Shown here one piece after another: positions 8,001-49,551 of a stretch of 64,000 nucleotides of DNA. How positions within the stretch are numbered: position 1 is the stretch's first letter; each line of letters opens with the position of its first letter. The position numbers were made by a program, and so were the translations under genes. The notes below the pieces were generated by a model. The model did no database searches and had not been told where the DNA came from. It saw only the letters and a program-made list of their open reading frames with translations. Source of the DNA: an uncultured Bdellovibrionales bacterium (GTDB lineage: Bacteria > Patescibacteriota > Minisyncoccia > Moranbacterales > UBA1568); NCBI GenBank assembly GCA_964491155.1, contig CAZBFG010000001.1, positions 4,604-68,603 on the forward strand, given 5' to 3'.

Positions 8001-9371
8001 ATGAACCATCCTATTATCGACAATACGCTCAAGAATTCCCTGCTGTGGATTTTTCTTGCTCTTATCGTAACTATTGGCATCGCCAGTTCTTTTTTTCTTC
8101 ACTTTTCACCATTATTACCCTTCCTTCTTGCTTTTGGAATCCTCTCTCTCATACTCGCCTTTCGAGCGCCTCTCCTCCTTCTTTTTGGTCTCATTATCGT
8201 CCGCATGTCACTCGACTACTCCTCGCAGTATGTCAGTGTTTCATTCTACAACATCACACTCTCCTTCTCACAGCTCCTCGGAGTCGGTATCGCGCTCTTG
8301 GGTGTCGTCATCCTCATTCTCAAACGCCAGCACCTGTTCCGCTACCCGCTCTTCTTTCCGTTTTTTCTCCTGCTCTTTTGGGGGAGCACGACGCTCTTGT
8401 ACTCATTGTCCCCCACGGATACCCTCCAGGAGCTACTCCGTATCTTTGACCTCTTTACGCTAGGCTTTCTCGCCTACGCCACCATCCGTGATACAGCAGA
8501 CTTCAAACATCTCCTCCAAGCCTTTTTTGTCTCGAGCATCCTTCCCATACTCTTTGGCCTCTACCAATACGCTTTTCACATCGGTCTCTCCGACCAAAAC
8601 GTTTCCATTCTCCGCATCTTTGGTACGTTTAGTCATCCCAACGTCTATTCACTCTACCTCTTTGCACTCATCGTTTTCGGAGGCCTCTACCTGGTCCTGT
8701 TTGCAGACAGCGGCATCCGACGTATCATCACAGCCGGCCTCGTCGCTATTTTCACTACCGTACTCGTCCTCACGTTTGCACGCGTGGCCTGGATAGCACT
8801 CTTCGTCTTTGTTTTCCTCATGGCACTCTTGCGCTATCGACTCCTCCTCTTTCCTCTCTTTCTCATTCCCTTTGTGCTCTATGTTTTTTCTCCCAGCTTT
8901 GCAGAACGCATCAACGAAAGTTTTCATTCCGATCCGGACAGTTCGCTCCTCTGGCGTCAAACACTCTGGGCAGATGTCACTCGTCATTCGCTCCAAGAAG
9001 ACCGCTTGCTTCTCGGTGCCGGTATGGATACGTTTCCCAAGGTCTCCGAAAGTGTCCGTGGTACCAATAACGGCCCCAACGATCCACACAATGATTTCGT
9101 CAAGTTCTTTGTGGAGGGCGGATTGGTTGGACTTGGCATCTTTTTCCTTTACCTCTTCTCACTCGGATATCTTCTTATAAAAAAGTATCGCCAAGCTCGT
9201 CCCGGCAGTGCCCTTCGCTTGGCCTTCGGCGTCATGTTTGTTTTCTTCCTCACGCTCGAACTCTCAGCCCTCACCGACAACATATTCAAAAACACTCCCG
9301 TCCAGTGGCTCTTCTTCACCGCCCTCGGCGCCCTCTTGGCTCTCTCGGAACAAAAAAAGAAGCTCGCTTGA
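8001..9371 (+). CDS. O-antigen ligase / Wzy-like polymerase family membrane protein
   Basis: 456 aa with about 10-12 TM helices and a periplasmic loop of Wzy_C type (FGTFSHPNVYSLYL...RVAWIALFVF). Confidence 0.7.
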   Translation: MNHPIIDNTLKNSLLWIFLALIVTIGIASSFFLHFSPLLPFLLAFGILSLILAFRAPLLLLFGLIIVRMSLDYSSQYVSVSFYNITLSFSQLLGVGIALLGVVILILKRQHLFRYPLFFPFFLLLFWGSTTLLYSLSPTDTLQELLRIFDLFTLGFLAYATIRDTADFKHLLQAFFVSSILPILFGLYQYAFHIGLSDQNVSILRIFGTFSHPNVYSLYLFALIVFGGLYLVLFADSGIRRIITAGLVAIFTTVLVLTFARVAWIALFVFVFLMALLRYRLLLFPLFLIPFVLYVFSPSFAERINESFHSDPDSSLLWRQTLWADVTRHSLQEDRLLLGAGMDTFPKVSESVRGTNNGPNDPHNDFVKFFVEGGLVGLGIFFLYLFSLGYLLIKKYRQARPGSALRLAFGVMFVFFLTLELSALTDNIFKNTPVQWLFFTALGALLALSEQKKKLA

Positions 9372-9391
9372 GCTTCAAAGTGGTATTCGGA

Positions 9392-9434
9392 TAAAAAAAG
9401 AAGGGGCCGGAACGCTGTTGCGTCCTGACCCCTT
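9392..9434 (-). terminator. Putative intrinsic terminator downstream of 9458-10279
   Basis: On the minus strand, a GC stem (aagggg...cccctt) is followed by ctttttttat. Confidence 0.4.
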
Positions 9435-9457
9435 TGTCGATACTGAAGTGTCTGGCG

Positions 9458-10279
9458 TCAGTTCCAGTAAGCCCGAGGGACTCGGATGGTGACGTACTTG
9501 CCACCCGTGTCGCCGACCCATTCGGACATCCACGACTCGCAGTTGTTGGCCGGGTAAGGGCTCCGGTTCTTCTCGCTCTTCGGATCCTCACAGTGCAGGT
9601 CGAACCCGCTGTAGGCATTGTCCATGCCGCGCCACCAGTCGAGGCCGACTTGCAGCCTGGCCGGACCAACGATCGCGACTTCCATCTCCACCAGATAGCG
9701 GGCGTCCCGTTTGTTGTCCAGGCGCCGCCCGGTCCAGTTGTGGAAAAGACGACGAGCGACTTTGCCCGGAAAGACATTGTAGACCCCGCCTTCGTAGTCG
9801 TAGACAAGGTCATTTTCGCCTGTTCCGTCGGTCTCGCCGTACCACTTCTCGACCTCATGACCGCGCGCAGTCATCTGGATCCGCGGAAAAATCCCACCTG
9901 CATCCACGTTTTCTTCACTCGTAGCATTGAACGTGATGGTCTGAAGCAGCCGTTTCGGACTGTTCTTGCCACGCTGTTCGTAGACTTTCCACGAGCGAAT
10001 CGAGACACGAGATGCGCCTCCTGTGTCACAGGGAACAGCGTTTACCACCGTGATGTGACTGATGGCCGCATGAAAGTTCGGTGGCGGCGTTTCCCGACCG
10101 GGATGGTGGTGCTCATTCTTCCAGATGGCACCCGACGGCACCAACGGTAGATTGTTCACTGGTGTCCCCGGAGCACATGGTTTGGTAACCGGGTTTTGTG
10201 CCCACAGTGACGATGAGCACAAGAGCCAGACGATGGCCAAAAAAAACCTCAATGCTTTCGTCACTTGGACTCCTTTCAT
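9458..10279 (-). CDS. Secreted hypothetical protein (high-GC island)
   Basis: Signal peptide MKGVQVTKALRFFLAIVWLLCSSSLWAQ; an AAGGAG ribosome-binding site; about 60% GC. Confidence 0.6.
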   Translation of the reverse strand: MKGVQVTKALRFFLAIVWLLCSSSLWAQNPVTKPCAPGTPVNNLPLVPSGAIWKNEHHHPGRETPPPNFHAAISHITVVNAVPCDTGGASRVSIRSWKVYEQRGKNSPKRLLQTITFNATSEENVDAGGIFPRIQMTARGHEVEKWYGETDGTGENDLVYDYEGGVYNVFPGKVARRLFHNWTGRRLDNKRDARYLVEMEVAIVGPARLQVGLDWWRGMDNAYSGFDLHCEDPKSEKNRSPYPANNCESWMSEWVGDTGGKYVTIRVPRAYWN

Positions 10280-10288
10280 CAGTTAAGT

Positions 10289-10741
10289 TCAGCAGCCCGA
10301 GGACTGCAGGTTCTTGACGTGCATCTCACCGTCGACTCCTTGGAGTCCGATGCGCACGGCGCCGTCCGTCATGTTCGGCGGGAAAACCCATTCCCGCTTG
10401 ACGGATCGGAACTCATCAGACGACCCCTGCTTGAAGTCCGGTGCCCACTTCTGTTTGCCACCGGCCATGATCTCGAAATCGAAATGAGGCCCATGGTAGG
10501 AAGCAGTCCCGCCCTTCACGCCCGTAGCCTTGTACTCGGCCGAGAGCGTGAACTTCTTGCCAGCGCAACTCGCCGGCAAGACATAGATCAGTCGCGGGAA
10601 GTCATCTCCACCGCTCTGACCACGAATGACGTACGTGTCACCGTTCTTAGTGACATCACCACCTTCCATCTTCCACACCACCTGGGCGGTGGCATTGACC
10701 GAAAAAAGAGCGGCCAAAAGCGCTAAAAACTTGGTTTGCAT
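10289..10741 (-). CDS. Small secreted hypothetical protein (high-GC island)
   Basis: Signal peptide MQTKFLALLAALFSVNATAQ; the track start at 10753 is TTG and the ATG at 10741 is preferred. Confidence 0.6.
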   Translation of the reverse strand: MQTKFLALLAALFSVNATAQVVWKMEGGDVTKNGDTYVIRGQSGGDDFPRLIYVLPASCAGKKFTLSAEYKATGVKGGTASYHGPHFDFEIMAGGKQKWAPDFKQGSSDEFRSVKREWVFPPNMTDGAVRIGLQGVDGEMHVKNLQSSGC

Positions 10742-10865
10742 GGTTTGCTCCAATTGAAAAGGACCAGAATTCGTGCGTTCGCATCACGCGAACAAAGAAG
10801 TATAGAATAAAATTCGCTTTCTGTCAATAAAGAGAAACTCGTTTGAGTTTCAGAAATATTTTGGA

Positions 10866-10910
10866 TAAAAAAAGAGGGGTTTCGCAGTACATCGTACTTT
10901 GAAACCCCTA
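10866..10910 (-). terminator. Intrinsic terminator after 10958-11608
   Basis: On the minus strand, aggggtttc...gaaacccct is followed by ctttttttat. Confidence 0.6.
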
Positions 10911-10957
10911 TTGTGTAACCGCGTCATTGACGCGGGACTTGTGGCGGCCTAGCCAGG

Positions 10958-11608
10958 CTACTGGAAGCTGCCGGCGAAGAACTGCTTGGCGGCCTTGGTC
11001 GGCAACACAACCTTGGTAGCCTTGCCGTCGGCACCGCGCTCGACGATGAGCAGTGTGATGGTTTGCCCACGGCTGTTCTTGCCGCGTGACTCACCAAAGG
11101 GGTGGGAACCCCAGGCCCGTGTTCCGTCCTTGAGTTCGATCACAGGGATCGCGCCCAAGAGGTCGTAGTCGCCGGCCACGTCGACCTGATAGGTACCACT
11201 GGCGCCCGTGATGGGTGCGCAGGCAACCCGCGGGTCGTCGAGCTTGAGACTCGGAAGGCTGGCAGTGCCTGGCCAATCACTGCCGCGCTTCAGAATGCAC
11301 TGACGTGCACCTTCGAACGCCGCCGGATTGGTCTTGTAGGACAACACCCAGTCCATGACACCCTTCTTGCCATCCTCGCTTTGCAGCTTGGTAGCGTTGT
11401 AGGTGGCGCCAGGGTCGGTTTTCCACACGGCCGCGATGCCGTGGATGGTCAACTCGACCTTGTCATTGAGAACCGGGCCGATCTGGAGCGTCGTCGCGCC
11501 GGCGCCTTGGGTACCGTTGACCTTGAAGGTCGTCTTGGCCGGTTCGGCCGCGGAAACGCTCAAGGCACATGCGAAAGCCGCGAGCGCGGCGAAGATCTTG
11601 CTGATCAT
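10958..11608 (-). CDS. Secreted hypothetical protein (high-GC island)
   Basis: Signal peptide MISKIFAALAAFACALSVSAAEP; an AGGAG ribosome-binding site. Confidence 0.6.
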   Translation of the reverse strand: MISKIFAALAAFACALSVSAAEPAKTTFKVNGTQGAGATTLQIGPVLNDKVELTIHGIAAVWKTDPGATYNATKLQSEDGKKGVMDWVLSYKTNPAAFEGARQCILKRGSDWPGTASLPSLKLDDPRVACAPITGASGTYQVDVAGDYDLLGAIPVIELKDGTRAWGSHPFGESRGKNSRGQTITLLIVERGADGKATKVVLPTKAAKQFFAGSFQ

Positions 11609-11643
11609 GGTGTGCTCCTAAGTTGCACGGTGGGAAAGTTGAT

Positions 11644-11690
11644 TGCGTCTGTAAAATCAACTCACCCGAGTTGATAGATTCACAGACGCG
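11644..11690 (-). promoter_or_regulatory. Long imperfect hairpin in the 5' UTR of 10958-11608
   Basis: gcgtctgtgaatctatcaactc pairs with gagttgattttacagacgc (8 bp then 6 bp); it lies between the promoter and the ribosome-binding site. Confidence 0.4.
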
Positions 11691-11745
11691 AGGAACTGAG
11701 TTCTCCGATGTTTACCTCTTTGACGAGATACCCACTGGAGGAATC

Positions 11746-11774
11746 AGTATACACCTTTTCTTACTTCTTGTCAA
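11746..11774 (-). promoter_or_regulatory. Sigma70-type promoter, TTGACA-17-TATACT
   Basis: On the minus strand a consensus -35 (ttgaca) is followed by a 17-nt spacer and a -10 (tatact), about 130 nt upstream of the ATG at 11608. Confidence 0.6.
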
Positions 11775-11824
11775 TAGCTAGAAAGAGAATGTTTTAAGGC
11801 TCAAGGGAGCCTAAAAAGATCAAA

Positions 11825-11852
11825 GGCAGGTCGTTCGGATGAACTTCCTGCC
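11825..11852 (-). terminator. Intrinsic terminator after 11995-13617
   Basis: On the minus strand, ggcagg...cctgcc is followed by tttgatcttttt. Confidence 0.5.
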
Positions 11853-11994
11853 CTGATTGCGACGATGTCGCTAACTGCCCTGCTGCGTTTCATTTACCTA
11901 AGCCGATATGTCGCATCCAAATGATTTTCATCATTCGTCTTGGCGCATACCCTTTTTATAGACTTTCGTACAAATTCTACGCAGCTGTGTTCAG

Positions 11995-13617
11995 TCAGTC
12001 GTCAGCGTCAGAGGGCGCGGTCTTCCACTGCTTCTGGGGACTATTCATCCCCTTAGGCAGAATGACCATGCCATCCTTGTCGAGTCGGCCACCGGCCTTT
12101 TCGATCGCGGCCGTGAATTGCGCCTTGCGCGCTTGTTCACGATGCACGTAGACCGTCTTGCGGATGTCCCAGCTCCAGCCGAAACCGAAGAGTGAACCGC
12201 CGTTCAACAGGTCATAGTTGCGACCGAGGCCTATGAAGAGCCGCTCTTCCTTATCGCTCCACTGGAAGCGCCAGTTGGCCGTTTCTGCCAGGCTCGGAGC
12301 CTCTTGGAACCAGCCGAGCGCGAACCAGAGCTTGGTACCGATCTTGTCATCCTCTTCCGAAAGGTCGAGGAGACCGATACGTCCACCCACGTTCACGACA
12401 TGACTGAGCCTGGAGTCCGGGTCGGCCAGTGGTTGACCAAAAACGGAGTGTTCGGCCTCACCTCCCGTCGGCTTGAAGGCCGAAACGAAGAGTTGGTACT
12501 TGAAGAAGGACTTCTCCCCCCTCAACTCGCGTGCGTAGTTGTTGTACGCGAGCGTGATACCACGAAGGTCGAATTGCCGTTGGCTCTTGTAAGCCGCTTG
12601 CTCGCCGTTCTCTTCCAACGTGGCCCACGGCAGCAGCTTGAGACCGAAGTCGTAGCCACCTTCGTAAGCACTGTACTTGTAGGCCGGCCCGTAACCACCG
12701 AGGTGACCACTGAAACCAAAGCCTGTATCAGTCTTGCCGTGCCAGCTGCTGAAAGTGCCGCCGATACCGAACGCGTGTTCGGCACCGGAACCTTCAATGA
12801 AGAGACCGTAGAGCGCTCCAGACACGAACGTCGATTGCGCTGTCCGATCGTACTCCTTGCCGCCCACCAGTTCCCAGTCCCAGCGACGCACTGCCTCTTC
12901 AGGCGGTACTTCTTTGGGTTCGGGTTCTGGTATAACTTCTGGCGTCGGTTCTGGCTCTTTCTGCGGCTGCGGTTCTGGTTCCGGCTGTGGCTCAGGCTGT
13001 GGTTCTGGTTCCGGCTGTGGCTCAGGCTGGGACGTCACCATGAAGGTGATGTTCCCACATGAGAGCATATCGGCCAGCGTCTTGCCGGTCGAGAGCTTCC
13101 ATGTCTCCATCGCTTCGGGTCGCCCACCTTGTTCTGGTGTGCAAACCCTGACGTCACGGAGAAACTTGATCGTACCATCTTTGGAACGGAATGGCATGGC
13201 TTTGAACACCATGTCACTAGATACTAGCTCACGAACTCCACGCTCGAGAGAGACCAGAGCTTTCGCCTCGACTTTCTCTTCTGCCGTCAGATCCGGATTG
13301 GCATCGATTGCCTCCAGCCGAAGCTTGAGAGAGCCATAACGATTCCACGGCGCCCTATTCAAGTTGATGCAGGCTTGGGGCTGCTTCGCTTCGACAGCTG
13401 TACCACGCTCCGGGAACCGGATGATGGCACCAGCCTTGATGACGTTGCAGTCGTCCAGTTGATTGAACAGGCAGAGCACCTGCCAATCATGACCGAACTT
13501 CTTGGCAATCGATCCGAGCGTCTCGCCGGGATTGATTTTGTGAGGCGGCGTTTGATCGCCAGCCCACGCCCCCACCACTCCAAAGAGCAGCAAGAGAACC
13601 ATATACCATTTCTTCAT
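11995..13617 (-). CDS. Secreted LysM-like domain protein with a PEPQ-repeat linker and a Gly/aromatic-rich C-terminal domain
   Basis: Signal peptide MKKWYMVLLLLFGVVGAWAG; a LysM-like segment (INPGETLGSIAKKFGHDWQVL...IKAGAIIRFP); the linker QPEPQPEPEPQPEPQPEPEPQPQKEPEP; a C-terminal ~300 aa rich in G/F/Y/W. Confidence 0.6.
   Translation of the reverse strand: MKKWYMVLLLLFGVVGAWAGDQTPPHKINPGETLGSIAKKFGHDWQVLCLFNQLDDCNVIKAGAIIRFPERGTAVEAKQPQACINLNRAPWNRYGSLKLRLEAIDANPDLTAEEKVEAKALVSLERGVRELVSSDMVFKAMPFRSKDGTIKFLRDVRVCTPEQGGRPEAMETWKLSTGKTLADMLSCGNITFMVTSQPEPQPEPEPQPEPQPEPEPQPQKEPEPTPEVIPEPEPKEVPPEEAVRRWDWELVGGKEYDRTAQSTFVSGALYGLFIEGSGAEHAFGIGGTFSSWHGKTDTGFGFSGHLGGYGPAYKYSAYEGGYDFGLKLLPWATLEENGEQAAYKSQRQFDLRGITLAYNNYARELRGEKSFFKYQLFVSAFKPTGGEAEHSVFGQPLADPDSRLSHVVNVGGRIGLLDLSEEDDKIGTKLWFALGWFQEAPSLAETANWRFQWSDKEERLFIGLGRNYDLLNGGSLFGFGWSWDIRKTVYVHREQARKAQFTAAIEKAGGRLDKDGMVILPKGMNSPQKQWKTAPSDADD
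12936..13034. repeat. Tandem 30-bp DNA repeat encoding the PE/PQ linker
   Basis: ggttctggttccggctgtggctcaggctgt appears in at least two perfect copies plus degenerate copies. Confidence 0.7.
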
Positions 13618-14543
13618 GGCAAACTCCTTGTCTGTAGGTTTCTGGGTGGGTCGCTCGGAAGCAACCCGGCTTGGGTTTCTTCCTTCACGGCGTCACCTTT
13701 CTTCCCGCATCCGTTGTTCGCCACAGATATGTTATGCGGCAACGACAGCACTGCGCCGACAATCATAAACGTCGCGCTGGGCACTGCCGAAGCACTACCG
13801 CATGTGACGAGTCTGTCGAGCTTATTCACGCCCTTTGTCAGGGCGCCAACATGAACGATGTCCGGCTGCGTCGAGAACACTTCCCCATCATCTCCCATCG
13901 GGAGAGGAATGGGGTAGCGTGCTTCCAGCCACACGAAGAACTTGCGTCCTGCGGGGTGGTCGCGCCGGAAATTCGAATACTCAGGAAATGGCGAGGGATG
14001 GGCGGTGAAGAACTGATTACTCAGCTCAAAGGCGCCATTCTCGATATTTACCAAAGCACCCTTGGTCGTCATGACTGTCTTGCCATCATTGAACCGGACG
14101 AGCCAGTAGCCCCGATTGTACTCCGCCACCCTTCCAGGAGGCAAGAGTACAAAAAGCTCTGTTTCGTCAGGATTCATGATGGTGTCAAACACTTCAACTC
14201 TTCCATCGACGTAGTAGGCGGTTCGCCAGACCGAACAGATGACTGGTCGAACTGACTTCCCAACCTTGTACGAGCGACTCGGGTCACGGATCTCACTGCG
14301 CCAGGCCTCAGGGAGAGGCTTGGGCAACTTGATCATGGCGACCGTGTAGCTGAAGGTCTTGGTAACATCACCACGTACTGATACGCAGCGCCACGGCAGT
14401 TGTACACCACCTTGATCGCCTTGCTTCACCTTCGTGGTCTCGATGTTGTAGCCAATATCCTCTCTGACCTCTTCGATCTTCCGATCGATACTGGCGCACC
14501 CCGTGAGGAGGGCCAGAGCGATCATACCAATGATACGCAACAT
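13614..14543 (-). CDS. Lipoprotein of unknown function, overlapping the downstream LysM gene by 4 nt
   Basis: Lipobox MLRIIGMIALALLTGCAS; a GGAG ribosome-binding site ahead of the ATG at 14543; the track start at 14609 is an upstream extension. Confidence 0.6.
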   Translation of the reverse strand: MLRIIGMIALALLTGCASIDRKIEEVREDIGYNIETTKVKQGDQGGVQLPWRCVSVRGDVTKTFSYTVAMIKLPKPLPEAWRSEIRDPSRSYKVGKSVRPVICSVWRTAYYVDGRVEVFDTIMNPDETELFVLLPPGRVAEYNRGYWLVRFNDGKTVMTTKGALVNIENGAFELSNQFFTAHPSPFPEYSNFRRDHPAGRKFFVWLEARYPIPLPMGDDGEVFSTQPDIVHVGALTKGVNKLDRLVTCGSASAVPSATFMIVGAVLSLPHNISVANNGCGKKGDAVKEETQAGLLPSDPPRNLQTRSLP

Positions 14544-14667
14544 GGATATCTCCTTGTGGGTTGCACCAAACAAACTAACTGAACACAAATTGGTAAGGAT
14601 CAAAAACAACAGATCCTAGGAAGAAAGCAGTGGTGACGATGACGCCGCACCGCTCTCTTCCCAGGAA

Positions 14668-14688
14668 CTTAGACATCAGATGTCTAAG
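14668..14688. promoter_or_regulatory. Perfect 21-bp palindrome CTTAGACATCaGATGTCTAAG, a candidate operator
   Basis: 10-bp arms with a 1-nt centre; it cannot form an RNA hairpin with a 1-nt loop, so a DNA-binding site is more likely; it lies about 125 nt upstream of the lipoprotein ATG. Confidence 0.45.
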
Positions 14689-14726
14689 TGCGGGATGACT
14701 CGGCGCTTTAGGAAAGCGCCCGTCAC

Positions 14727-15404
14727 TTAGGCCATTCGGTCATTCAAAGAAACAGTGTCATTGCGAGAAAAAGCAGAGTAGCGAGATTCGTATCTCACAA
14801 CAATAAAGAAAGCTGAGAGAAAGAGTCCGGCTAGAAAGGCGATGAAGACAGTCTTAATCACCTTGGTCAGACTCGGGCTCTGTTCGAGAATCGGACCAGA
14901 GAGGACACGGATCTCGACACTTTTTTCATCACCACCACGGAAGAGTGAGTTTTTTTCGATCAGTACCTGAGCGATACCGTCCATGATACGGGCGACATCA
15001 CGCTCACGTTCACCTTTGACAGTTACGCCGATGATGCCGAGTTCGAGATTTTTTTCGACCGCTACCATCTTGCTCCACTGTGCGAGACGATGCTGTTTGT
15101 CGAATGGCAAGAATTCTTTGTTCACTTTACCAGTCTCTACCAGTGCATCGATGAAACGATCGCTGTACACCGCCTCAGCAAGAATTTTTCCCAAGTACTC
15201 TGAAGATTTGAATTGGGTGTAAAAATCCTGATTGTTTGCATTGGTCTGCACCACCAAAAAATCCATTTTATTCTGAAATGGCTTTTCAGTCATGATAAGA
15301 CCGAAGAATGCAAGTGCGCCAAACAGCGCACCAAAAAGGATAAGTGTTCCCATCCGTGACCGCAATAAAGCGAAGATTTGCTGGTTTTCCATAATTTTTC
15401 TCAC
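14727..15404 (-). CDS. Wzz-like polysaccharide chain-length determinant family protein
   Basis: N-terminal and C-terminal TM helices flank a periplasmic helical domain (Wzz architecture); the track start at 15404 is GTG and an ATG alternative lies at 15390. Confidence 0.55.
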   Translation of the reverse strand: MRKIMENQQIFALLRSRMGTLILFGALFGALAFFGLIMTEKPFQNKMDFLVVQTNANNQDFYTQFKSSEYLGKILAEAVYSDRFIDALVETGKVNKEFLPFDKQHRLAQWSKMVAVEKNLELGIIGVTVKGERERDVARIMDGIAQVLIEKNSLFRGGDEKSVEIRVLSGPILEQSPSLTKVIKTVFIAFLAGLFLSAFFIVVRYESRYSAFSRNDTVSLNDRMA

Positions 15405-15420
15405 AATTTATAGACCTTAT

Positions 15421-15449
15421 ATACTACCAAAAAAATGACAAATTGTCAA
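15421..15449 (-). promoter_or_regulatory. Promoter TTGACAAT-N17-TGGTAGTAT (extended -10)
   Basis: The minus strand reads ttgacaatttgtcatttttttggtagtat; the greA promoter is nearly identical. Confidence 0.5.
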
Positions 15450-15475
15450 TAGCAAAACAATGATTTTTTGATATA

Positions 15476-15508
15476 GCTAAAAACCCCTTAAACAAGGGGT
15501 TTTATGGG
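15476..15508 (-). terminator. Intrinsic (bidirectional-looking) terminator
   Basis: aaaacccctt-aaac-aaggggtttt forms a stem with T-runs on the minus strand. Confidence 0.5.
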
Positions 15509-15524
15509 ATATTATATTGGACTA

Positions 15525-15694
15525 GGAAATATCTTCCCTTTTCTTACCCTTTCTTTCCGACGAACATCCCTGACTCGTTCTGCCGAACAGGGAGCTGTCT
15601 TGTACCAAGGTGTCAATCACGCTCGACTGTTACCGGCTCACTCATCACGGATGTGACCGTCGGAAACCGGAGAAAGAAAATGAAAGAATATTTC
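15525..15694. repeat. Copy 1 of a ~175-nt conserved imperfect-palindrome element (candidate structured ncRNA)
   Basis: About 85% identical to 62242-62422; nested helices (ggaaatat/atatttcc, tccgacg/cgtcgga, acatcc/ggatgt) carry compensatory changes between the copies. Confidence 0.7.
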
Positions 15695-15715
15695 CCATGC
15701 GCTTTTCAGGGCTCC

Positions 15716-16885
15716 CTAAAAAAGCTTGGTGAGTTTCTCGAGAATATCAAACTGAGCAAAATCACGCACGGTCACAAAAAGCATAAGGAGTAAAAGGAGC
15801 ATAAAGCCCACTTGATGAATCATACCCTCCACTCTGCGACTGACCGGACTACCTTTCAACTTTTCAATGAGAATAAAGAGGATACGTCCACCGTCGAGGG
15901 CCGGAATCGGCAGGATGTTGATGATACCAAGATTGATCGAAAGGAGTGCAGCAAACTGAAGGAGATATGGCAGACCGAGGTCACTCATCTGCTTGGTCAA
16001 GTAGACGATGCCGACCGGACCAGTCACATCAAGTGCCGCTTTCTCCGCCCCAAAGAGTGAAGCAATCATTTTACCAAAAGCTTCGAGGATAGCCATGGTG
16101 ATGTTGTAGGTCGCGATGGCGCCACGGTAGATGGCTTCGTACCATGGATATGAAACCACGGCTGTTTCAGAAAACGAAATGCCGAGAGCGCCTTCACTAG
16201 CTGGATATTCAGTTCGGGGTGTTCCAGAAAGCGAAAACGCCTGTCCAAAACGATCCACATCGATACTGATAGATTTGCCCTTGTTCTCACCGATTATCTG
16301 CGAGACCCGTTCGAGACTGTGTATCTTTTCCCCGTTGATAGAGACGATAGCGTCACCCATTGACAGTCCCATGGCTTCGGCTGGCGTCCCCTTCCCGACG
16401 GACAGCACCTGAATTTCCGCATTTGGATACTGACCACGTTCACTCGGCTCGATAGGCTGCGGCATGCCAAGCATGAGCACGATAGAAATGAGGAACCAGG
16501 CAAACAGAAAGTTCATGACCACCCCTGCAGCCAGCACTTTGACACGTACCCAGGCTGACTTGCTCGCAAAACTGTTGGGATCGCTCGTATCGTGTCCATC
16601 CTCTCCAGCAATTTTGACAAACCCCCCGAGTGGAATCCAATTGAGCGAATAGACCGTTTTCCCGCTTGGCATTTCCTTGTTTCCCCACACTATTCTGTAT
16701 TTCCCCGTATCATCCTTGATCACTCCGAACATCCGTGGTGGAAACCCAAAGCCAAATTCGTCTACTCGAATACCGTTTCGTACAGCTGTCACAAAATGCC
16801 CCAATTCGTGTACAAACACCAGGAGCCCAAGGAGAACAATAAATATGAGAACAGTGAGCATAGTCAGAAAATTCCTAATTCCCAA
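15716..16885 (-). CDS. rseP: RIP site-2 zinc metalloprotease RseP (M50 family) with a PDZ domain
   Basis: HELGHF motif in the first TM helix, a PDZ segment, and a C-terminal LDGG motif; the track start is TTG and an ATG alternative lies at 16861. Confidence 0.8.
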   Translation of the reverse strand: MGIRNFLTMLTVLIFIVLLGLLVFVHELGHFVTAVRNGIRVDEFGFGFPPRMFGVIKDDTGKYRIVWGNKEMPSGKTVYSLNWIPLGGFVKIAGEDGHDTSDPNSFASKSAWVRVKVLAAGVVMNFLFAWFLISIVLMLGMPQPIEPSERGQYPNAEIQVLSVGKGTPAEAMGLSMGDAIVSINGEKIHSLERVSQIIGENKGKSISIDVDRFGQAFSLSGTPRTEYPASEGALGISFSETAVVSYPWYEAIYRGAIATYNITMAILEAFGKMIASLFGAEKAALDVTGPVGIVYLTKQMSDLGLPYLLQFAALLSINLGIINILPIPALDGGRILFILIEKLKGSPVSRRVEGMIHQVGFMLLLLLMLFVTVRDFAQFDILEKLTKLF

Positions 16886-16965
16886 TCTCTAATTTCTAAA
16901 AATGCAGAAATTTTATTGGGATTCTTAGTTAGATATTTGATATTAGAAATTAGATATCCCGTTTC
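16886..16965. repeat. Copy A of the CTAATTTCTAA/TTAGAAATTAG palindromic intergenic repeat
   Basis: Inverted pairs cccaat/attggg and ctaatttctaa/ttagaaattag; it lies between frr and rseP. Confidence 0.6.
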
Positions 16966-17523
16966 TTAAACGGTCAGCACTTCTTCTTCCTTCTTCTTCC
17001 GAATCACTTCCAGTTTCTGATTGTATTCATCAACGACTTTTTGCAACTCTTCCTTTCCAAAAAACTTGTCATCCTCAGAGATATCCCCTGATTTTTCAAA
17101 ATCCTGGATATCTTTCCAGATTTCTTCTCGAACATTGCGTATAGCGATGCGCCCCTCTTCTGCCCGTTGATTGAGTGATTTGACCAAGTTTTTTCGCGTT
17201 TCCTCAGTCAATGCTGGGAGTGTGATACGAAGCGCCACGCCATCATTGCCTGGGTTCAGTCCCAGATCAGACTCCCGGATGGCTGCTTCAATGAGTACCA
17301 GACTGCCCTTGTCCCAGGGAGAAATGAGGATCTGACGAGCCTCGGGAATGCTGATACTGGCTATCTGACGGAGCGGTGTACGTGTACCGTAGTAGTCCAC
17401 CGACAAATTTTCCACCAATCCGGGATGGGCGCGTCCTGTACGAATCTTGGAGGCTTCGTCTGCAAAGTGTCCGACCGCATTCTCGAAATTCTGCTTCTTA
17501 TCATCAATCAGTTCCTTTATCAT
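16966..17523 (-). CDS. frr: Ribosome recycling factor
   Basis: 185 aa; full-length RRF-like sequence (MIKELIDDKKQNFENAVGHF...). Confidence 0.9.
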   Translation of the reverse strand: MIKELIDDKKQNFENAVGHFADEASKIRTGRAHPGLVENLSVDYYGTRTPLRQIASISIPEARQILISPWDKGSLVLIEAAIRESDLGLNPGNDGVALRITLPALTEETRKNLVKSLNQRAEEGRIAIRNVREEIWKDIQDFEKSGDISEDDKFFGKEELQKVVDEYNQKLEVIRKKKEEEVLTV

Positions 17524-17542: not shown

Positions 17543-18739
17543 TTACTTGAAATTTCTCAGTCCAACAAACAAATATTCCGAATCAAAGGGATCATAAGAG
17601 ACAAACGATGCACCCCGATCAACTGTCATCCCCGTCACAAACCAGGTCTGTCCGCTATCGATGGATTTGTAAAAAGCTTTGCCGGCTACAAACACGATCT
17701 CATCGGGATTTTTAGGGTTGACTGCGATAGAGCGAATCGGAAACTTCTTGGCACTCTCGATGATATTAATCTCGGTCCAGTATTTTCCAAAATCCGCACT
17801 CTTGAAAAAACCATTGCTCGTACCGGCGTAGATCACCCCTGAGCGAGTCGGATCCGAAGCGATAGAGATGATACCCGCAGGCATCTTGTTCGTTTGATTT
17901 CGTTCAGAGAGCTTGGCGGATTCCTTTTGCAGCCGCTCGGATTCCTTGGCATTGCCATTGGTCGAGGCGTCGCTTGCTCGCTTCTGGAGTGCTGCTACTT
18001 CTTTCTGCTTCTCTTCTTCCCAATCAAGCCAGGCTACTCCACCATCTCGAGAGTAGTAGAGTTTTTGACCAAAGGTCAGGAGATAGGTAGTAAACTTCTG
18101 AGTAGCATCAAACAAAATATCAGAGACCGTACCTTCAATCTTGTTTCCCACGTTCTTCCACGTCTCACCAGCGTCCGTACTCTTGACCACTGTCCCGGTC
18201 GAAGTGCCCGCAAAAATAACATTGATATCAGTCGGGTGCTGGGAAAGAGCTGTGACATTGGCCTGGACACCCGGCTCGGTATAAACTTCCTTCCATTCCT
18301 CTCCGCCATCATCTGTCCGGAAAATCTTGCCCCACTCGCCAACCACTCCCGAAGCAAACATGCGGTTGTCCGGGTCATTACGATCCAAGATGAAACTATA
18401 GATCTTTTTTGGAGGAAAGGAGATAGGTGTCCACTGCTCACCTGCATCTTCCGTTTTGAAAATACCATTGTCTACTGAACCCACATAGATAGTTCCCTGC
18501 GTATGTGGATGATAGGCGATAGAAAGGATGTCTGCCTTGGTGATAGTGGTTGTTTCATCAATCGTTGACTTGACCTCAAAGGTCTGCCCTCCATCACTGG
18601 TCCGCCACAGACTGCCCTTGGCTGGGGCGCCACTCGTAGTTGTCTCCGGCGAAAGAGATCCAGGAAGCGGGATAGTACACCCTGACAGTATAAAAGTACC
18701 CATCGCCAATACTCCTGACAACAATAATCTCTGTACCAT
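17543..18739 (-). CDS. Lipoprotein with BNR/Asp-box repeats
   Basis: Six S-x-D-x-G-x-T-W-like motifs (SDGGQTF, TEDAGEQWT, TDDGGEEWK, STDAGETWK, SRDGGVAWL, SIDSGQTWF); the signal/lipobox reads LAMGTFILSGC; the start is trimmed to the ATG at 18739. Confidence 0.65.
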   Translation of the reverse strand: MVQRLLLSGVLAMGTFILSGCTIPLPGSLSPETTTSGAPAKGSLWRTSDGGQTFEVKSTIDETTTITKADILSIAYHPHTQGTIYVGSVDNGIFKTEDAGEQWTPISFPPKKIYSFILDRNDPDNRMFASGVVGEWGKIFRTDDGGEEWKEVYTEPGVQANVTALSQHPTDINVIFAGTSTGTVVKSTDAGETWKNVGNKIEGTVSDILFDATQKFTTYLLTFGQKLYYSRDGGVAWLDWEEEKQKEVAALQKRASDASTNGNAKESERLQKESAKLSERNQTNKMPAGIISIASDPTRSGVIYAGTSNGFFKSADFGKYWTEINIIESAKKFPIRSIAVNPKNPDEIVFVAGKAFYKSIDSGQTWFVTGMTVDRGASFVSYDPFDSEYLFVGLRNFK

Positions 18740-18831
18740 ATTTGTATATAATTTCCCTTTCAGTATAGCAGAAAACTGAGCCCGAGAAAAGAAAAAACTC
18801 CTCGAGGGAGTTCTTTCCTTTTGATGAGTTT

Positions 18832-18907
18832 TGGTGGGTACAGCAGGAATCGAACCTGCGACCGTTGGCTTAAAAGGCCACTGCTCTACCGACTGAGCTA
18901 TGTACCC
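18832..18907 (-). tRNA. tRNA-Lys (anticodon TTT)
   Basis: Cloverleaf gggtaca/tgtaccc acceptor stem, D-arm gctcagtcggtagagc, anticodon loop cttttaa, T-arm ggttcgattcc, and CCA encoded. Confidence 0.85.
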
Positions 18908-18955
18908 GCAAATCAAAACAATTGTACCTGGAATGAGGCACTTTGGTCAACCCTC

Positions 18956-47859: not shown

Positions 47860-49551
47860 CTATTCTTCCAGCTTCTTCTTGGGTGATACCAACAGCTTTG
47901 GGTGACGTTCCATCCAGTCTCCGGCCAAATACGTCGTCGTGATGCGCACCAGTACCACCGCAGTAAACAATGAGAGGAGGACACCAAGCGCCAAGATGAC
48001 CGCAAACCCCTTCACGAATCCTGTTCCTAGACCGATAAGTATGACTGTGGTGATCAGTGTCGAAACATGACCGTCCCGAATACTTGGCCAAGCCCGCCTG
48101 TAGCCTTCCTTGATAGAGCGGATGACCCCTTTGCCATAGGACAACTCTTCTCGTGTGCGTTCAAAGATAAGCACGTTGGCATCAACCGCGATACCAATCG
48201 AAAGGATAAAGCCTGCGATACCCGAGAGTGTGACCGTGATAGCAAACGGGGTAAACACCGAAAGCTTGAAAATCGTCAAAAGCATCGCTGTATAAAGAAG
48301 CAACGCAAACACGGCTACGAGTCCCAACAACCGATAGTAGAAAATCATAAACACCGCGACCGCCGCCAAACCAACAATTCCCGCAAACAAACTCTGCTTT
48401 AGTGCCACTTCTCCGAGAGAAGCATCGACACTCTGCTGACCGACCAGCGTGATCGGTACTGGGAGTGCTCCCTCATTCAAACGCTTCACCAGGTTATTGG
48501 CCTCCTGCATGGTAAAGTCTCCTGTGATAACAGCCTGCCCGTTCGGTATCTCATTTTGCACCGTTGGCTGACTGATGATTTCGTCATCGAGGAAGATAGC
48601 CACCGGCTTACCGATATTGCGTTTGGTTATTTCCGAAAAAAGAGTCGTCCCCTCATCGTCAAATTGCAGTGCGATCTGCGGCGACCCGACACCCTGCGTC
48701 TGATAGTCCACATAGGCGTTTTTCAAGTGTTTGCCAGAAAGTCCCGTTGCCTTGTAAGCAAGCTTGGGGAAATCCTGGGCGGCGTACTTACGAAACAGCA
48801 CATGCGCCACTTTGACTTCACGCTCATCACCCTCACCGCGCTCATCGAGTTTTTTCATGATATGCCACCCAAAATCCGTTTCTACTAGAGCAGGATGCAC
48901 GCTCCCTTTGGAAAAATTCGGATCAAATGTCACGGCATCAAACTCACCAACGTAATATCCCTTCTTGGCAAAATCATACTCCCCACCATTGTCTTTGGAT
49001 CCCGGGTCTTCACTGAATTGTGTTGCCAGGACAGCAAATTCTTCTCCTTCTTTGGCGCGCGCCAAAATACTTTCTGCCTTGCCACGGTTGGAATCATTCA
49101 GTTGATCGAGCTGTCCCTGCTCTTCCGGAGTGATGTTGCCATCTGAAGATTCACGAAATTCCAAAAACGGCGTTTCTTTGATCATCTTTTTCGCCTGATC
49201 AATATCCTTGATCCCCGGGAGCTCTACGATGATACGGTGTTCCGTACCCGAGCGAGACAGCTGCACGAGCGGCTCTCCCACACCAAAGGCATTGACGCGT
49301 CGTTCGATGACCGCTTCCGCTGCCACGAGCGCATCACTCACCTTTTCACTCTCAATTTGCGACACATCAGCCTTGTACTCGAGGTGGATACCGCCCTGCA
49401 AATCCAGTCCTTTGTTCACCTGCATGGCATCGAACACGTCAAAAACCGGCGGGATAAATTTCACCGCCTGCGGGTACGAAATAACTCCACAGACCAAGCC
49501 AAGAAGGAGTACCGCTATGAATTGATATCGGATTTTTGCCTGTTGTTTCAT
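47860..49551 (-). CDS. secD: Protein-export membrane protein SecD
   Basis: N-terminal TM helix, a large periplasmic domain (LDLQGGIHLEY) and a C-terminal 5-TM bundle. Confidence 0.85.
   Translation of the reverse strand: MKQQAKIRYQFIAVLLLGLVCGVISYPQAVKFIPPVFDVFDAMQVNKGLDLQGGIHLEYKADVSQIESEKVSDALVAAEAVIERRVNAFGVGEPLVQLSRSGTEHRIIVELPGIKDIDQAKKMIKETPFLEFRESSDGNITPEEQGQLDQLNDSNRGKAESILARAKEGEEFAVLATQFSEDPGSKDNGGEYDFAKKGYYVGEFDAVTFDPNFSKGSVHPALVETDFGWHIMKKLDERGEGDEREVKVAHVLFRKYAAQDFPKLAYKATGLSGKHLKNAYVDYQTQGVGSPQIALQFDDEGTTLFSEITKRNIGKPVAIFLDDEIISQPTVQNEIPNGQAVITGDFTMQEANNLVKRLNEGALPVPITLVGQQSVDASLGEVALKQSLFAGIVGLAAVAVFMIFYYRLLGLVAVFALLLYTAMLLTIFKLSVFTPFAITVTLSGIAGFILSIGIAVDANVLIFERTREELSYGKGVIRSIKEGYRRAWPSIRDGHVSTLITTVILIGLGTGFVKGFAVILALGVLLSLFTAVVLVRITTTYLAGDWMERHPKLLVSPKKKLEE

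What the first reader, a model, noticed from the sequence alone, without database searches (positions are those of the whole stretch)
11995..14543. Lipoprotein plus LysM-PEPQ-repeat protein operon with a 4-nt overlap and a tandem 30-bp coding repeat
The lipoprotein gene (13614-14543) and the 540-aa LysM-like protein gene (11995-13617) overlap at ATGA, which implies translational coupling. The LysM-like protein joins a peptidoglycan-binding-type N-terminal module to a PEPQPEPEPQ linker, and the linker is encoded by tandem 30-bp repeats at 12936-13034 that could slip and vary in length. After the linker comes a Gly/aromatic-rich ~300-aa domain with alternating hydrophobic residues. This architecture fits a cell-wall-anchored surface protein. 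The repeat tract is a potential contingency locus.
Basis: partly seen in the sequence, partly recalled or inferred. Interest (0 to 1): 0.55.

Follow-up and report, generated by a model that had tools for sequence, protein, structure and literature searches.

The report
Wall-tethered beta-barrel in a CPR bacterium
A bacterium from a group thought to have only one membrane encodes, next to a partner lipoprotein in a surface-sugar gene cluster, a protein that joins a cell-wall-binding head to what is predicted to be an outer-membrane-type beta-barrel; the DNA repeat that first drew attention is an ordinary spacer.

Summary
The sequence observations hold. The lipoprotein gene (13614-14543) and the 540-aa gene (11995-13617) overlap at ATGA. 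LysM scores above Pfam's cut-off. A 30-bp tandem repeat (2.2 copies) encodes part of a Pro-rich linker.

The contingency-locus reading is not supported. Close strains keep linker length within about 4 residues, and across the family the linker is a length-constrained spacer (median 40 aa).

The host is a Candidatus Moranbacteria (CPR) bacterium, a group counted as monoderm. About 190 protein clusters share the architecture, and wherever enough flanking DNA was held they sit in the same cassette: CpsC-like, lipoprotein, LysM-barrel, small secreted protein(s), Wzy_C, GT4. In strains compared at DNA or gene-by-gene level, the cassette is a recombination hot spot. It is GC3-rich in all six genomes measured.

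Best reading: a wall-tethered, surface-exposed barrel/lipoprotein pair forming the distal module of a Wzy-type glycan pathway. Where a membrane-type barrel sits in a monoderm is unresolved.

The parts
14727..15404 (-). CpsC-like polysaccharide co-polymerase (short, two-TM PCP type). It is the first gene of the likely transcription unit, with a promoter-like site at 15449-15421.
   Evidence: TIGR01006 (CpsC family) E 2.2e-10 over residues 8-204, below the curated cut-off. Weak Wzz and GNVR hits at the two ends. No terminator-like site was found on the minus strand between this gene and the lipoprotein gene. It lies directly upstream of the lipoprotein in every locus with enough DNA.
13614..14543 (-). 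Lipoprotein gene (309 aa). It has a Shine-Dalgarno AAGGAG at 14555-14550 and a lipobox LTGC encoded at 14496-14507. After the lipid anchor comes a roughly 35-aa disordered tether, a beta-rich core (aa 55-230), and a conserved Cys-flanked hydrophobic C-terminal segment.
13614..13617 (-). ATGA stop/start overlap between the lipoprotein gene and the LysM-barrel gene, with the Shine-Dalgarno AAGGAG for the downstream gene at 13629-13624.
   Evidence: Read directly from the sequence. The same 4-nt overlap occurs in L001, L005, L006 and L012.
11995..13617 (-). LysM-barrel gene (540 aa): signal peptide, LysM, Cys-containing middle domain, Pro-rich spacer, 12-stranded barrel, basic helix and tail.
13561..13617 (-). 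Sec-type signal peptide, aa 1-19 (…GAWA|GDQ).
   Evidence: Read from the sequence. The N-terminal hydrophobic segment is conserved in the family.
13411..13542 (-). LysM domain, aa 26-69.
13030..13380 (-). Middle domain, aa 80-196 (two helices plus six strands). Three Cys residues (83, 159, 187) and the C-G-N motif are conserved. Fold family unknown.
   Evidence: pLDDT about 74-90 by 10-residue block. Conservation. No PDB sequence hit and no hhalign similarity to BamA POTRA domains.
12898..13029 (-). Pro/Glu/Gln-rich spacer, aa 197-240, predicted disordered.
   Evidence: pLDDT below 50. Across the family it is 25-60 aa, median 40, 32% Pro, with no conserved sequence.
12965..13029 (.). Tandem 30-bp coding repeat, 2.2 copies at 97% identity, encoding PEPQPEPEPQ units of the spacer.
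   Evidence: TRF and the repeat finder family D1.
12166..12897 (-). Predicted 12-stranded antiparallel beta-barrel, aa 241-484.
11998..12165 (-). Post-barrel basic helix (aa 485-507; R497 invariant in 21 close members) and a conserved tail (DGMxxLP … APSD).
10958..11608 (-). Secreted 216-aa protein of the cassette, with its own promoter-like site at 11774-11746 and a terminator-like hairpin at 10851-10834.
   Evidence: Signal peptide read; promoter and terminator sites. Orthologues follow the barrel gene in L001, L005, L006 and L010. The protein is 100% identical to that of L001.
9458..10753 (-). Two accessory secreted-protein genes (154 aa and 273 aa) inside the same GC-rich block. They are absent from the closest relative.
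   Evidence: ORFs with signal peptides. Window 9361-10896 has no counterpart in L001. The block is flanked by a 20-nt direct repeat at 9386-9405 and 10860-10879. The 273-aa protein is 28% identical to a gene in the same position in L016.
8001..9371 (+). Wzy_C-family membrane protein (polymerase/ligase type) that bounds the cassette.
   Evidence: PF04932 E 3.9e-15. It flanks the cassette in every long locus.

Best explanation
The two genes encode an envelope module specific to Candidatus Moranbacteria and relatives (CPR). One product is a lipid-anchored lipoprotein. The other is a Sec-exported protein with a LysM head, a Pro-rich spacer of constrained length, and a C-terminal 12-stranded barrel of the outer-membrane type, followed by a basic helix. 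The LysM head is expected to bind peptidoglycan. The spacer would reach about 12-14 nm if extended, taking a 0.31 nm rise per residue for a polyproline-II helix (my own knowledge).

The pair is made in fixed proportion through translational coupling. It sits with a CpsC-like co-polymerase, a Wzy_C protein and GT4 glycosyltransferases. It most likely forms the distal, surface-exposed part of a Wzy-dependent glycopolymer assembly line: a wall-tethered conduit or anchor for the polymer. This would be functionally analogous to the lipoprotein-plus-barrel pairs that finish polysaccharide export in diderms.

Shown here: the gene structure, LysM, the predicted fold, the conserved neighbourhood, and the fast mosaic evolution. 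Inferred: peptidoglycan binding, physical pairing with the lipoprotein, the link to the glycan, surface exposure, and where the barrel's hydrophobic belt is buried.

The 30-bp repeat is simply how this lineage encodes its spacer.

For: Family. A profile search finds 191 clusters at E<=1e-3, nearly all 500-650 aa with the barrel C-terminal and most with LysM.

Functional link. The order CpsC-like, lipoprotein, barrel, small secreted protein(s), Wzy_C, GT4 is kept down to members found at E 9e-9 and 2.6e-10. It is also kept where the outer flanks differ, for example SecDF instead of frr-rseP. No terminator-like site lies between the cpsC-like and lipoprotein genes.

Pairing. The lipoprotein and the barrel change type together. 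In L017 they are 34% and 29-33% identical to the window, while flanking genes are 68-92% identical.

Surface exposure. The cassette is consistently more divergent than its flanks, and it is mosaic.

Host. Named PheT relatives are Moranbacteria or Patescibacteria, plus one labelled only 'bacterium' and one labelled Minisyncoccota, another CPR lineage. MAG titles agree.
Against: No experiment supports any of this, and the fold is a prediction from 21 sequences.

CPR bacteria are described as monoderm lineages that lost the outer membrane and its porins (PMC10160955; bioRxiv 10.1101/2021.05.31.446380). A membrane-type barrel therefore has no obvious home, and no known assembly machine.

The lipoprotein has no OPX domain (Poly_export or SLBB), and indeed no recognisable domain or fold at all.

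In L017 the barrel and lipoprotein types change while Wzy and GT4 stay 75-82% identical. The barrel type therefore does not track the glycan genes as a polymer-specific exporter might.
Confidence: 0.42

Rival explanations
1. Outer-layer tether. The protein is a structural link between peptidoglycan and an unrecognised outer hydrophobic layer: a lipid patch, a toga-like sheath of barrels, or a remnant outer membrane. It would work like OmpA (barrel, Pro-rich hinge, peptidoglycan-binding domain) or OmpM/SlpA, but with LysM as the wall-binding head. The glycan locus would be only its neighbour.
For: The domain logic of wall-binding head, Pro-rich hinge of constrained length, and membrane-type barrel matches known tethers. 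Loops on both faces are short, at most 13 aa. GC3 of 0.64-0.79 against about 0.5 for flanking genes in the window, and a higher cassette GC in all six genomes, would fit a very abundant structural protein. In several Moranbacteria the barrel gene lies two genes after rseP, where E. coli has bamA. The Thermotoga toga is a sheath of barrel trimers with few lipids (PMC10160955).
Against: No SLH or OmpA_C domain is present. There is no sequence similarity to the BamA barrel or POTRA domains. The frr-rseP adjacency is not kept in deeper relatives, whereas the glycan genes are. No outer-membrane biogenesis gene occurs in the 64-kb window. Published surveys place CPR among monoderms.
Confidence: 0.2
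2. Host-interface device. Because CPR bacteria are thought to live attached to other cells, the barrel could insert into, or bind, the envelope of a host bacterium while the LysM head stays in the symbiont's own wall. It would act as adhesin or pore, and rapid allele replacement would reflect host specificity.
For: Whole-module replacement and mosaicism resemble genes under diversifying selection at cell-cell or phage interfaces. The best structural neighbours include adhesin translocators, namely intimin, invasin and autotransporters. A spacer of about 12-14 nm could project the barrel beyond the wall.
Against: The tail beyond the barrel is only 56 aa, so there is no passenger or adhesin domain. 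Self-insertion of a monomeric 12-stranded barrel into a foreign membrane has no precedent that I know of. Phage pressure on any surface protein explains the variability equally well. The tight linkage to cpsC and wzy is left unexplained.
Confidence: 0.1
3. Not a membrane barrel. The C-terminal domain could be a soluble or wall-embedded beta structure, or the AlphaFold2 barrel could be an artefact of an alternating Gly/aromatic sequence. The protein would then be an ordinary LysM wall protein of unknown function.
For: The alignment had only 21 sequences and overall pTM was 0.51. There is no sequence match to any outer-membrane protein family in Pfam, NCBIfam or PDB. Foldseek TM-scores are modest, 0.35-0.49 on the target. 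The host group lacks a known outer membrane.
Confidence: 0.15
4. The protein is a cell-wall-anchored surface protein whose 30-bp repeat tract slips and changes linker length at high frequency, making it a contingency locus.
For: The repeat is real and in frame. The closest relative carries other short repeats in the same linker, so duplication and slippage do occur over evolutionary time.
Against: The array has only 2.2 copies. Linker length differs by at most about 4 residues among 8 members of one 90%-identity cluster, through small indels rather than unit gain or loss, and is identical within another cluster. Linker length is constrained family-wide. No read-level data were available.
Confidence: 0.05
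5. Wrong organism. The contig could come from a diderm bacterium or be chimeric, so a barrel protein would be unremarkable.
For: The closest relative's MAG is labelled 'uncultured Bdellovibrionales'. The cassette has a higher GC than its flanks.
Against: The cassette is embedded between housekeeping genes whose named relatives are Moranbacteria or other CPR/Patescibacteria labels. The same synteny occurs in at least nine independent assemblies, three of them titled Candidatus Moraniibacteriota. The GC offset is present in all six genomes measured, including one at 38% GC, which argues against assembly chimeras.
Confidence: 0.03

Closest known systems
Inverse autotransporters (type Ve secretion: intimin, invasin, YeeJ)
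   Different: There is no match to the IAT_beta family PF11924 and no hhalign similarity to the YeeJ barrel. There is no passenger, only a 56-aa tail. An extra Cys-containing middle domain and a long Pro-rich spacer lie between LysM and the barrel. The host is a CPR bacterium, not a diderm with a BAM machine.
OmpA and OmpM/SlpA-type peptidoglycan-to-outer-membrane tethers
   Same: Both combine a membrane barrel, a flexible or extended connector, and a wall-binding domain in one polypeptide. OmpA also uses a Pro-rich hinge (my own knowledge).
   Different: The order is reversed relative to OmpA. LysM replaces OmpA_C or SLH. The barrel has 12 strands, against 8 in OmpA. No sequence relationship was found. 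The tether surveys report these systems lost in CPR (bioRxiv 10.1101/2021.05.31.446380).
Lipoprotein-plus-barrel end stations of polysaccharide export (composite OPX/beta-barrel translocons; PgaA-PgaB, AlgE-AlgK, PelB-PelC)
   Same: A barrel gene and a lipoprotein gene lie side by side inside a polysaccharide locus that also encodes a PCP-type co-polymerase and a Wzy-type protein (PMC9601211, PMC9603273, PMC12819527).
12-stranded sugar-acid channels KdgM, NanC and VhGalP
   Different: No sequence similarity was detected. Those porins are stand-alone barrels without a LysM head, spacer or partner lipoprotein.

Membership tests
LysM domain (PF01476) | Profile match above Pfam's gathering score. 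| tested here: met
Bacterial lipoprotein (signal peptidase II substrate) | N-terminal basic residue, hydrophobic stretch and a lipobox [LVI][ASTVI][GAS]C. | tested here: met
   MLRIIGMIALALLTGC, with L-T-G-C at residues 13-16. G15 and C16 are >=90% conserved among 21 homologues. No dedicated predictor was available.
Translationally coupled gene pair | Overlapping stop and start codons, conserved in relatives. | tested here: met
   ATGA at 13614-13617. The same 4-nt overlap occurs in L001, L005, L006 and L012. The genes are adjacent in all other loci. Coupling itself was not measured.
Inverse autotransporter (type Ve) | Sequence match to the IAT_beta translocator family PF11924. | tested here: not met
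   No hit at E<=10 in any of 21 members. hhalign against the first 500 residues of E. coli YeeJ aligns only part of LysM, at probability 0.9%.
Inverse autotransporter (type Ve) | 12-stranded barrel preceded by a periplasmic LysM domain. | tested here: met
Inverse autotransporter (type Ve) | C-terminal passenger of Ig-like or lectin domains exported through the barrel. | tested here: not met
   Only 56 residues follow the barrel: one helix and a disordered tail. Family members end within about 30-90 residues of the barrel.
Classical autotransporter beta-domain (PF03797) | Profile match, with an N-terminal passenger joined by a lumen-spanning helix. | tested here: not met
OmpA-family tether | OmpA_C peptidoglycan-binding domain and an 8-stranded barrel. 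| tested here: not met
   No OmpA or OmpA_membrane hit. The barrel has 12 predicted strands.
OmpM/SlpA tether | N-terminal SLH domain plus a coiled-coil stalk. | tested here: not met
   No SLH hit. The connector is a disordered Pro-rich segment, not a coiled coil.
Composite OPX/beta-barrel polysaccharide translocon | OPX protein with Poly_export (PF02563) and SLBB domains. | tested here: not met
Composite OPX/beta-barrel polysaccharide translocon | Genomic association with PCP and Wzy (or Wzx) genes. | tested here: met
   A CpsC-like gene lies directly upstream and Wzy_C plus GT4 genes downstream in all long loci. A MurJ/Polysacc_synt flippase is present in L013.
Omp85/BamA | 16-stranded barrel with POTRA domains; sequence match. 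| tested here: not met
Contingency locus (repeat-mediated phase or length variation) | Repeat copy number varies among closely related strains or reads. | tested here: not met
   Two 90%-identity clusters were aligned. Linkers are identical in one. In the other they differ by up to about 4 residues through small indels. Read-level data could not be tested.
Integral membrane beta-barrel (general) | Actual residence in a lipid bilayer and dependence on an assembly machine. | not testable with these tools
   Only the predicted fold and the amphipathic pattern are available.

The most novel reading that the evidence does not exclude
Moranbacteria, members of the CPR lineage that envelope-evolution studies count as monoderm, would make an abundant outer-membrane-type 12-stranded barrel tethered to peptidoglycan through LysM. 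This would imply one of two things. Either there is an unrecognised outer hydrophobic layer (a toga-like barrel sheath, lipid patches or a remnant outer membrane), or a membrane barrel can be assembled without any Omp85/BAM machine. The pair would then be a previously unseen type of wall-to-outer-layer tether and glycan outlet.
Probability: 0.25. Interest if true: 0.85.

Novelty: new variant of a known kind. Interest (0 to 1): 0.66.

Why it matters
Models of how bacteria gained or lost the outer membrane treat CPR bacteria as a clade that lost the membrane, its porins and its tethers. A conserved, probably abundant protein that fuses a wall-binding domain to a membrane-type barrel in this clade does not fit that picture.

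It also gives a concrete object to test, by cryo-tomography, by envelope proteomics of enrichment cultures, and by refolding of the recombinant domain.

The work defines an unannotated family of about 190 clusters at 50% identity, together with its partner lipoprotein. These may be the missing outer step of surface-glycan assembly in these organisms.

The locus is a recombination hot spot, so it could serve as a marker of strain-level surface diversity, phage pressure or host specificity in CPR populations.

Tried and rejected
1. Sequence annotation of the barrel. Pfam, NCBIfam, PDB sequence profiles and hhalign against the E. coli BamA barrel, BamA POTRA domains and YeeJ gave no match.

3. 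Recent horizontal island. The GC step at 9400-14650 suggested one. It was rejected because the same offset occurs in all six genomes measured, across deep divergence, including at third codon positions in the window. No mobility genes or long flanking repeats were found.

4. Phage or plasmid origin. tblastn of the barrel against 50,697 phage and 72,556 plasmid records gave no match.

5. Repeat slippage as the source of variation. Rejected.

6. Structured RNA in the intergenic regions. Only two sub-threshold Rfam hits appeared, a rimP leader at 35 bits against 47 and IMES-1 at 26 against 81. Both were treated as chance.

It therefore under-counts the family, finding 4 loci.

8. Taxon names for distant members. 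Cluster look-ups returned none, so 'CPR-wide' spread is inferred only from gene context such as DUF4012 and SecD-PPIase.

9. A search for BamA or Omp85 in complete Moranbacteria genomes could not be run with the remaining caps.
Full report
**1. The observation**

Two minus-strand ORFs occupy the stated coordinates.

The upstream ORF most plausibly starts at ATG 14543. That start is preceded by AAGGAG at 14555-14550. The N-terminus MLRIIGMIALALLTGC carries a lipobox, and G15 and C16 are conserved in at least 90% of 21 homologues.

Its TGA stop overlaps the ATG of the 540-aa gene, giving ATGA at 13614-13617. A second AAGGAG lies at 13629-13624. The same 4-nt overlap is seen in four related loci, and the two genes are adjacent in all others.

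Pfam LysM scores 32 bits against a cut-off of 20.9.

Tandem Repeats Finder reports a 30-bp period with 2.2 copies at 97% identity at 12965-13029. It is one of only two arrays scoring 60 or more in the window.

Residues 241-484 are rich in Gly and aromatic residues, with alternating hydrophobicity. The repeat is real but short.

**2. What the 540-aa protein is**

AlphaFold2, run on an alignment of 21 family members, gives mean pLDDT 79. The parts are:
- a signal peptide;
- a LysM domain;
- a middle domain of two helices and six strands, with 10-residue block pLDDT of about 74-90;
- a disordered Pro-rich segment (residues 197-240);
- twelve long antiparallel strands (residues 241-484, block pLDDT 73-96 and mostly 85-96);
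- a 23-residue basic helix and a disordered tail.

Foldseek agrees.

Across 94 divergent family members, one face of the strands is 60% hydrophobic and the other 30%. The second face carries more Gly and polar residues. That is the pattern of a barrel with an apolar exterior.

No Pfam, NCBIfam or PDB sequence profile recognises the barrel or the middle domain. hhalign finds nothing in common with the E. coli BamA barrel, the BamA POTRA domains or the YeeJ translocator.

**3. The organism and the family**

The window is ordinary chromosome: frr, rseP, serS, lysS, greA, PBP2, mreBC, pheST, secDF and others.

Named relatives of its PheT are Candidatus Moranbacteria, Moraniibacteriota or 'Patescibacteria group'. 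There is also one entry labelled only 'bacterium' and one labelled Minisyncoccota, another CPR lineage.

A word-indexed search found only about 21 full-length relatives of the 540-aa protein. An exhaustive profile search with the barrel found 191 clusters at 50% identity. Nearly all are 500-650 aa with the barrel at the C-terminus, and most have LysM.

A pattern scan of one genome per species found four loci. Three are titled Candidatus Moraniibacteriota. One is titled 'uncultured Bdellovibrionales', but it has the same synteny and is probably mis-binned.

The literature I could search counts CPR bacteria among the monoderm lineages that lost the outer membrane, its porins and its tethers (PMC10160955; bioRxiv 10.1101/2021.05.31.446380). 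I found no paper describing such a barrel protein in CPR.

**4. The neighbourhood**

In every locus with enough flanking DNA the order is: CpsC-like co-polymerase, lipoprotein, LysM-barrel, one to three small secreted proteins, Wzy_C, GT4 glycosyltransferases. A Pel9A-like beta-helix protein, sugar-nucleotide enzymes and DUF4012 are often present too.

This holds for members as distant as profile E-values of 9e-9 and 2.6e-10. It also holds where the outer flanks differ, for example SecDF instead of frr-rseP.

The cpsC-like product matches TIGR01006 over its full length. No terminator-like site separates it from the lipoprotein gene, and a promoter-like site precedes it.

The conserved linkage is the main evidence that the pair works with a Wzy-dependent glycopolymer pathway.

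**5. Where the variation really is**

- Within one cluster at 90% identity, eight proteins are 531-537 aa long and their linkers differ only by small indels and substitutions. In another cluster the linkers are identical.
- The nearest relative encodes its linker with different short repeats, and a more distant relative with none.
- Across 47 representatives the linker is 25-60 aa (median 40) and 32% Pro, with no conserved sequence. It behaves as a spacer whose length matters.

The locus is nevertheless highly variable, by recombination.
- Module identities are decoupled. P0014 shares 87% of the middle domain but only 31% of the barrel with the window protein. P0008 shares 21% and 79%.
- Against L017, flanking proteins are 68-92% identical. 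The lipoprotein drops to 34% and the LysM-barrel to 29-33%, and the 216-aa gene is missing.
- Against L001 the DNA is about 90% identical, with three exceptions. The LysM-coding 370 bp is unalignable (42-59%). A 1-kb tract including the 216-aa gene is 99-100% identical. A 1.5-kb two-gene block is absent from L001 and is bounded by a 20-nt direct repeat.
- The lipoprotein and the barrel change type together, which fits a physical partnership.

**6. Mechanism**

Shown: the architecture, the predicted fold, the coupling signal, the conserved neighbourhood and the mosaic evolution.

Inferred:
- LysM binds the cell's own peptidoglycan.
- The spacer spans the wall. It would reach about 12-14 nm if extended, taking 0.31 nm per residue for polyproline II (my own knowledge).
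- The barrel sits at or beyond the outer face of the wall with the lipoprotein.
- Together they act as outlet or anchor for the glycan made by the neighbouring genes.

I put this at about 0.4.

The main rival treats the protein as a structural tether to an unrecognised outer layer, like OmpA or OmpM but with LysM. It gains some weight from three observations. The GC3 bias of the cassette could reflect very high expression: 0.64-0.79 against about 0.5 in the window, with cassette GC raised in all six genomes. Loops are short on both barrel faces. And the gene's position after rseP mirrors bamA in E. coli, although that adjacency is not kept in deeper relatives.

A host-directed role, and a non-membrane or mis-predicted fold, remain possible. 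Misassignment of the contig to CPR is unlikely.

**7. Comparison and novelty**

The closest known architecture is the inverse autotransporter: signal peptide, LysM, 12-stranded barrel (PMC5595812). Two defining features are not met, the PF11924 sequence match and the passenger.

The tether analogy (OmpA, OmpM) fails on the wall-binding domain and on strand number.

The polysaccharide-translocon analogy (PMC9601211, PMC9603273, PMC12819527) fails on the OPX domains and on barrel size.

It is therefore a new variant of a known kind: a familiar fold and a familiar wall-binding domain, in a new unannotated family, combined in a new way, in a lineage where such a barrel is unexpected.

The claim rests on structure prediction and comparative genomics only.

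Noticed in passing
window 9400-14650; also L001, L005, L006, L007, L013: The secreted-protein cassette is 4-11 GC points richer than its flanks in all six genomes measured: window 56% against 48%, L013 45% against 38%. In the window the difference also appears at third codon positions, with GC3 0.64-0.79 against about 0.5. An offset that persists through deep divergence argues against recent transfer. Codon bias from very high expression, or biased gene conversion at a recombination hot spot, are untested explanations.
   Followed up: partly
window 13290-13660 and 10900-11940, compared with L001: Against a strain that is otherwise about 90% identical in DNA, the LysM-coding part of the gene is unalignable (42-59%). 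In contrast, the intergenic region plus the 216-aa gene is 99-100% identical, and that protein is 100% identical. These look like recent recombination tracts with breakpoints inside and beside the gene.
   Followed up: partly
window 9361-10896: A 1.5-kb block carrying two signal-peptide proteins (154 aa and 273 aa, no family hits) is absent from L001. It is bounded by a 20-nt direct repeat (9386-9405 and 10860-10879) next to two similar terminator-like hairpins. This suggests gain or loss by recombination between repeated terminators. L016 carries three small genes at the same place.
   Followed up: partly
window 11995-17523, compared with E. coli K-12 L014: The gene order here is frr, rseP, cpsC-like, lipoprotein, barrel. 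E. coli has frr, dxr, ispU, cdsA, rseP, bamA, skp, lpxD. The barrel gene therefore lies close to where bamA sits in diderms. No sequence similarity to BamA was found, and the adjacency is lost in deeper relatives.
   Followed up: partly
window 17543-18916: The listed 457-aa ORF overlaps tRNA-Lys (18832-18907). The real start is probably the internal MVQRLLLSGVLAMGTFILSGC, which would make it a lipoprotein with a BNR/Sortilin (Ycf48-like) beta-propeller. It keeps its place in synteny but is only 39-51% identical between genomes whose neighbouring genes are 64-92% identical. It is another fast-evolving surface protein.
   Followed up: partly
window 13614-13870 (lipoprotein residues about 225-309): The C-terminal part of the lipoprotein contains an invariant C-G-S motif, a roughly 20-residue hydrophobic stretch, and a second conserved Cys followed by basic residues (…TCGSASAVPSATFMIVGAVLSLPHNISVANNGCGKKG…). 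AlphaFold2 does not model it, with pLDDT below 50. It could be a second membrane anchor, a sorting signal, or the part that contacts the barrel.
   Followed up: no
L008 / L001 (CAZPXK010000002.1): The MAG holding the closest relative is titled 'uncultured Bdellovibrionales bacterium', yet the contig has the Moranbacteria gene order and about 90% DNA identity to the window. This is probably a mis-binned contig or a mislabelled bin.
   Followed up: partly
window 47860-49551; L015 4915-6606: SecD carries an inserted PPIase (rotamase) domain between its P1 subdomains, both in the window and in a distant relative. This is an unusual fusion of a secretion-motor subunit with a folding catalyst.
   Followed up: no
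window 11746-11774 and 10799-10827 (minus strand): Two promoter-like sites share identical hexamers and spacing (TTGACA, 17 nt, TATACT). They precede the 216-aa and 154-aa genes. A related sequence lies upstream of the cpsC-like gene (family D2).
   Followed up: no
P0202 (member of the P0001 cluster): One near-identical variant lacks 22 residues spanning strand 4 of the barrel. It comes from a 2.4-kb contig. It may be an assembly artefact or a defective allele.
   Followed up: no
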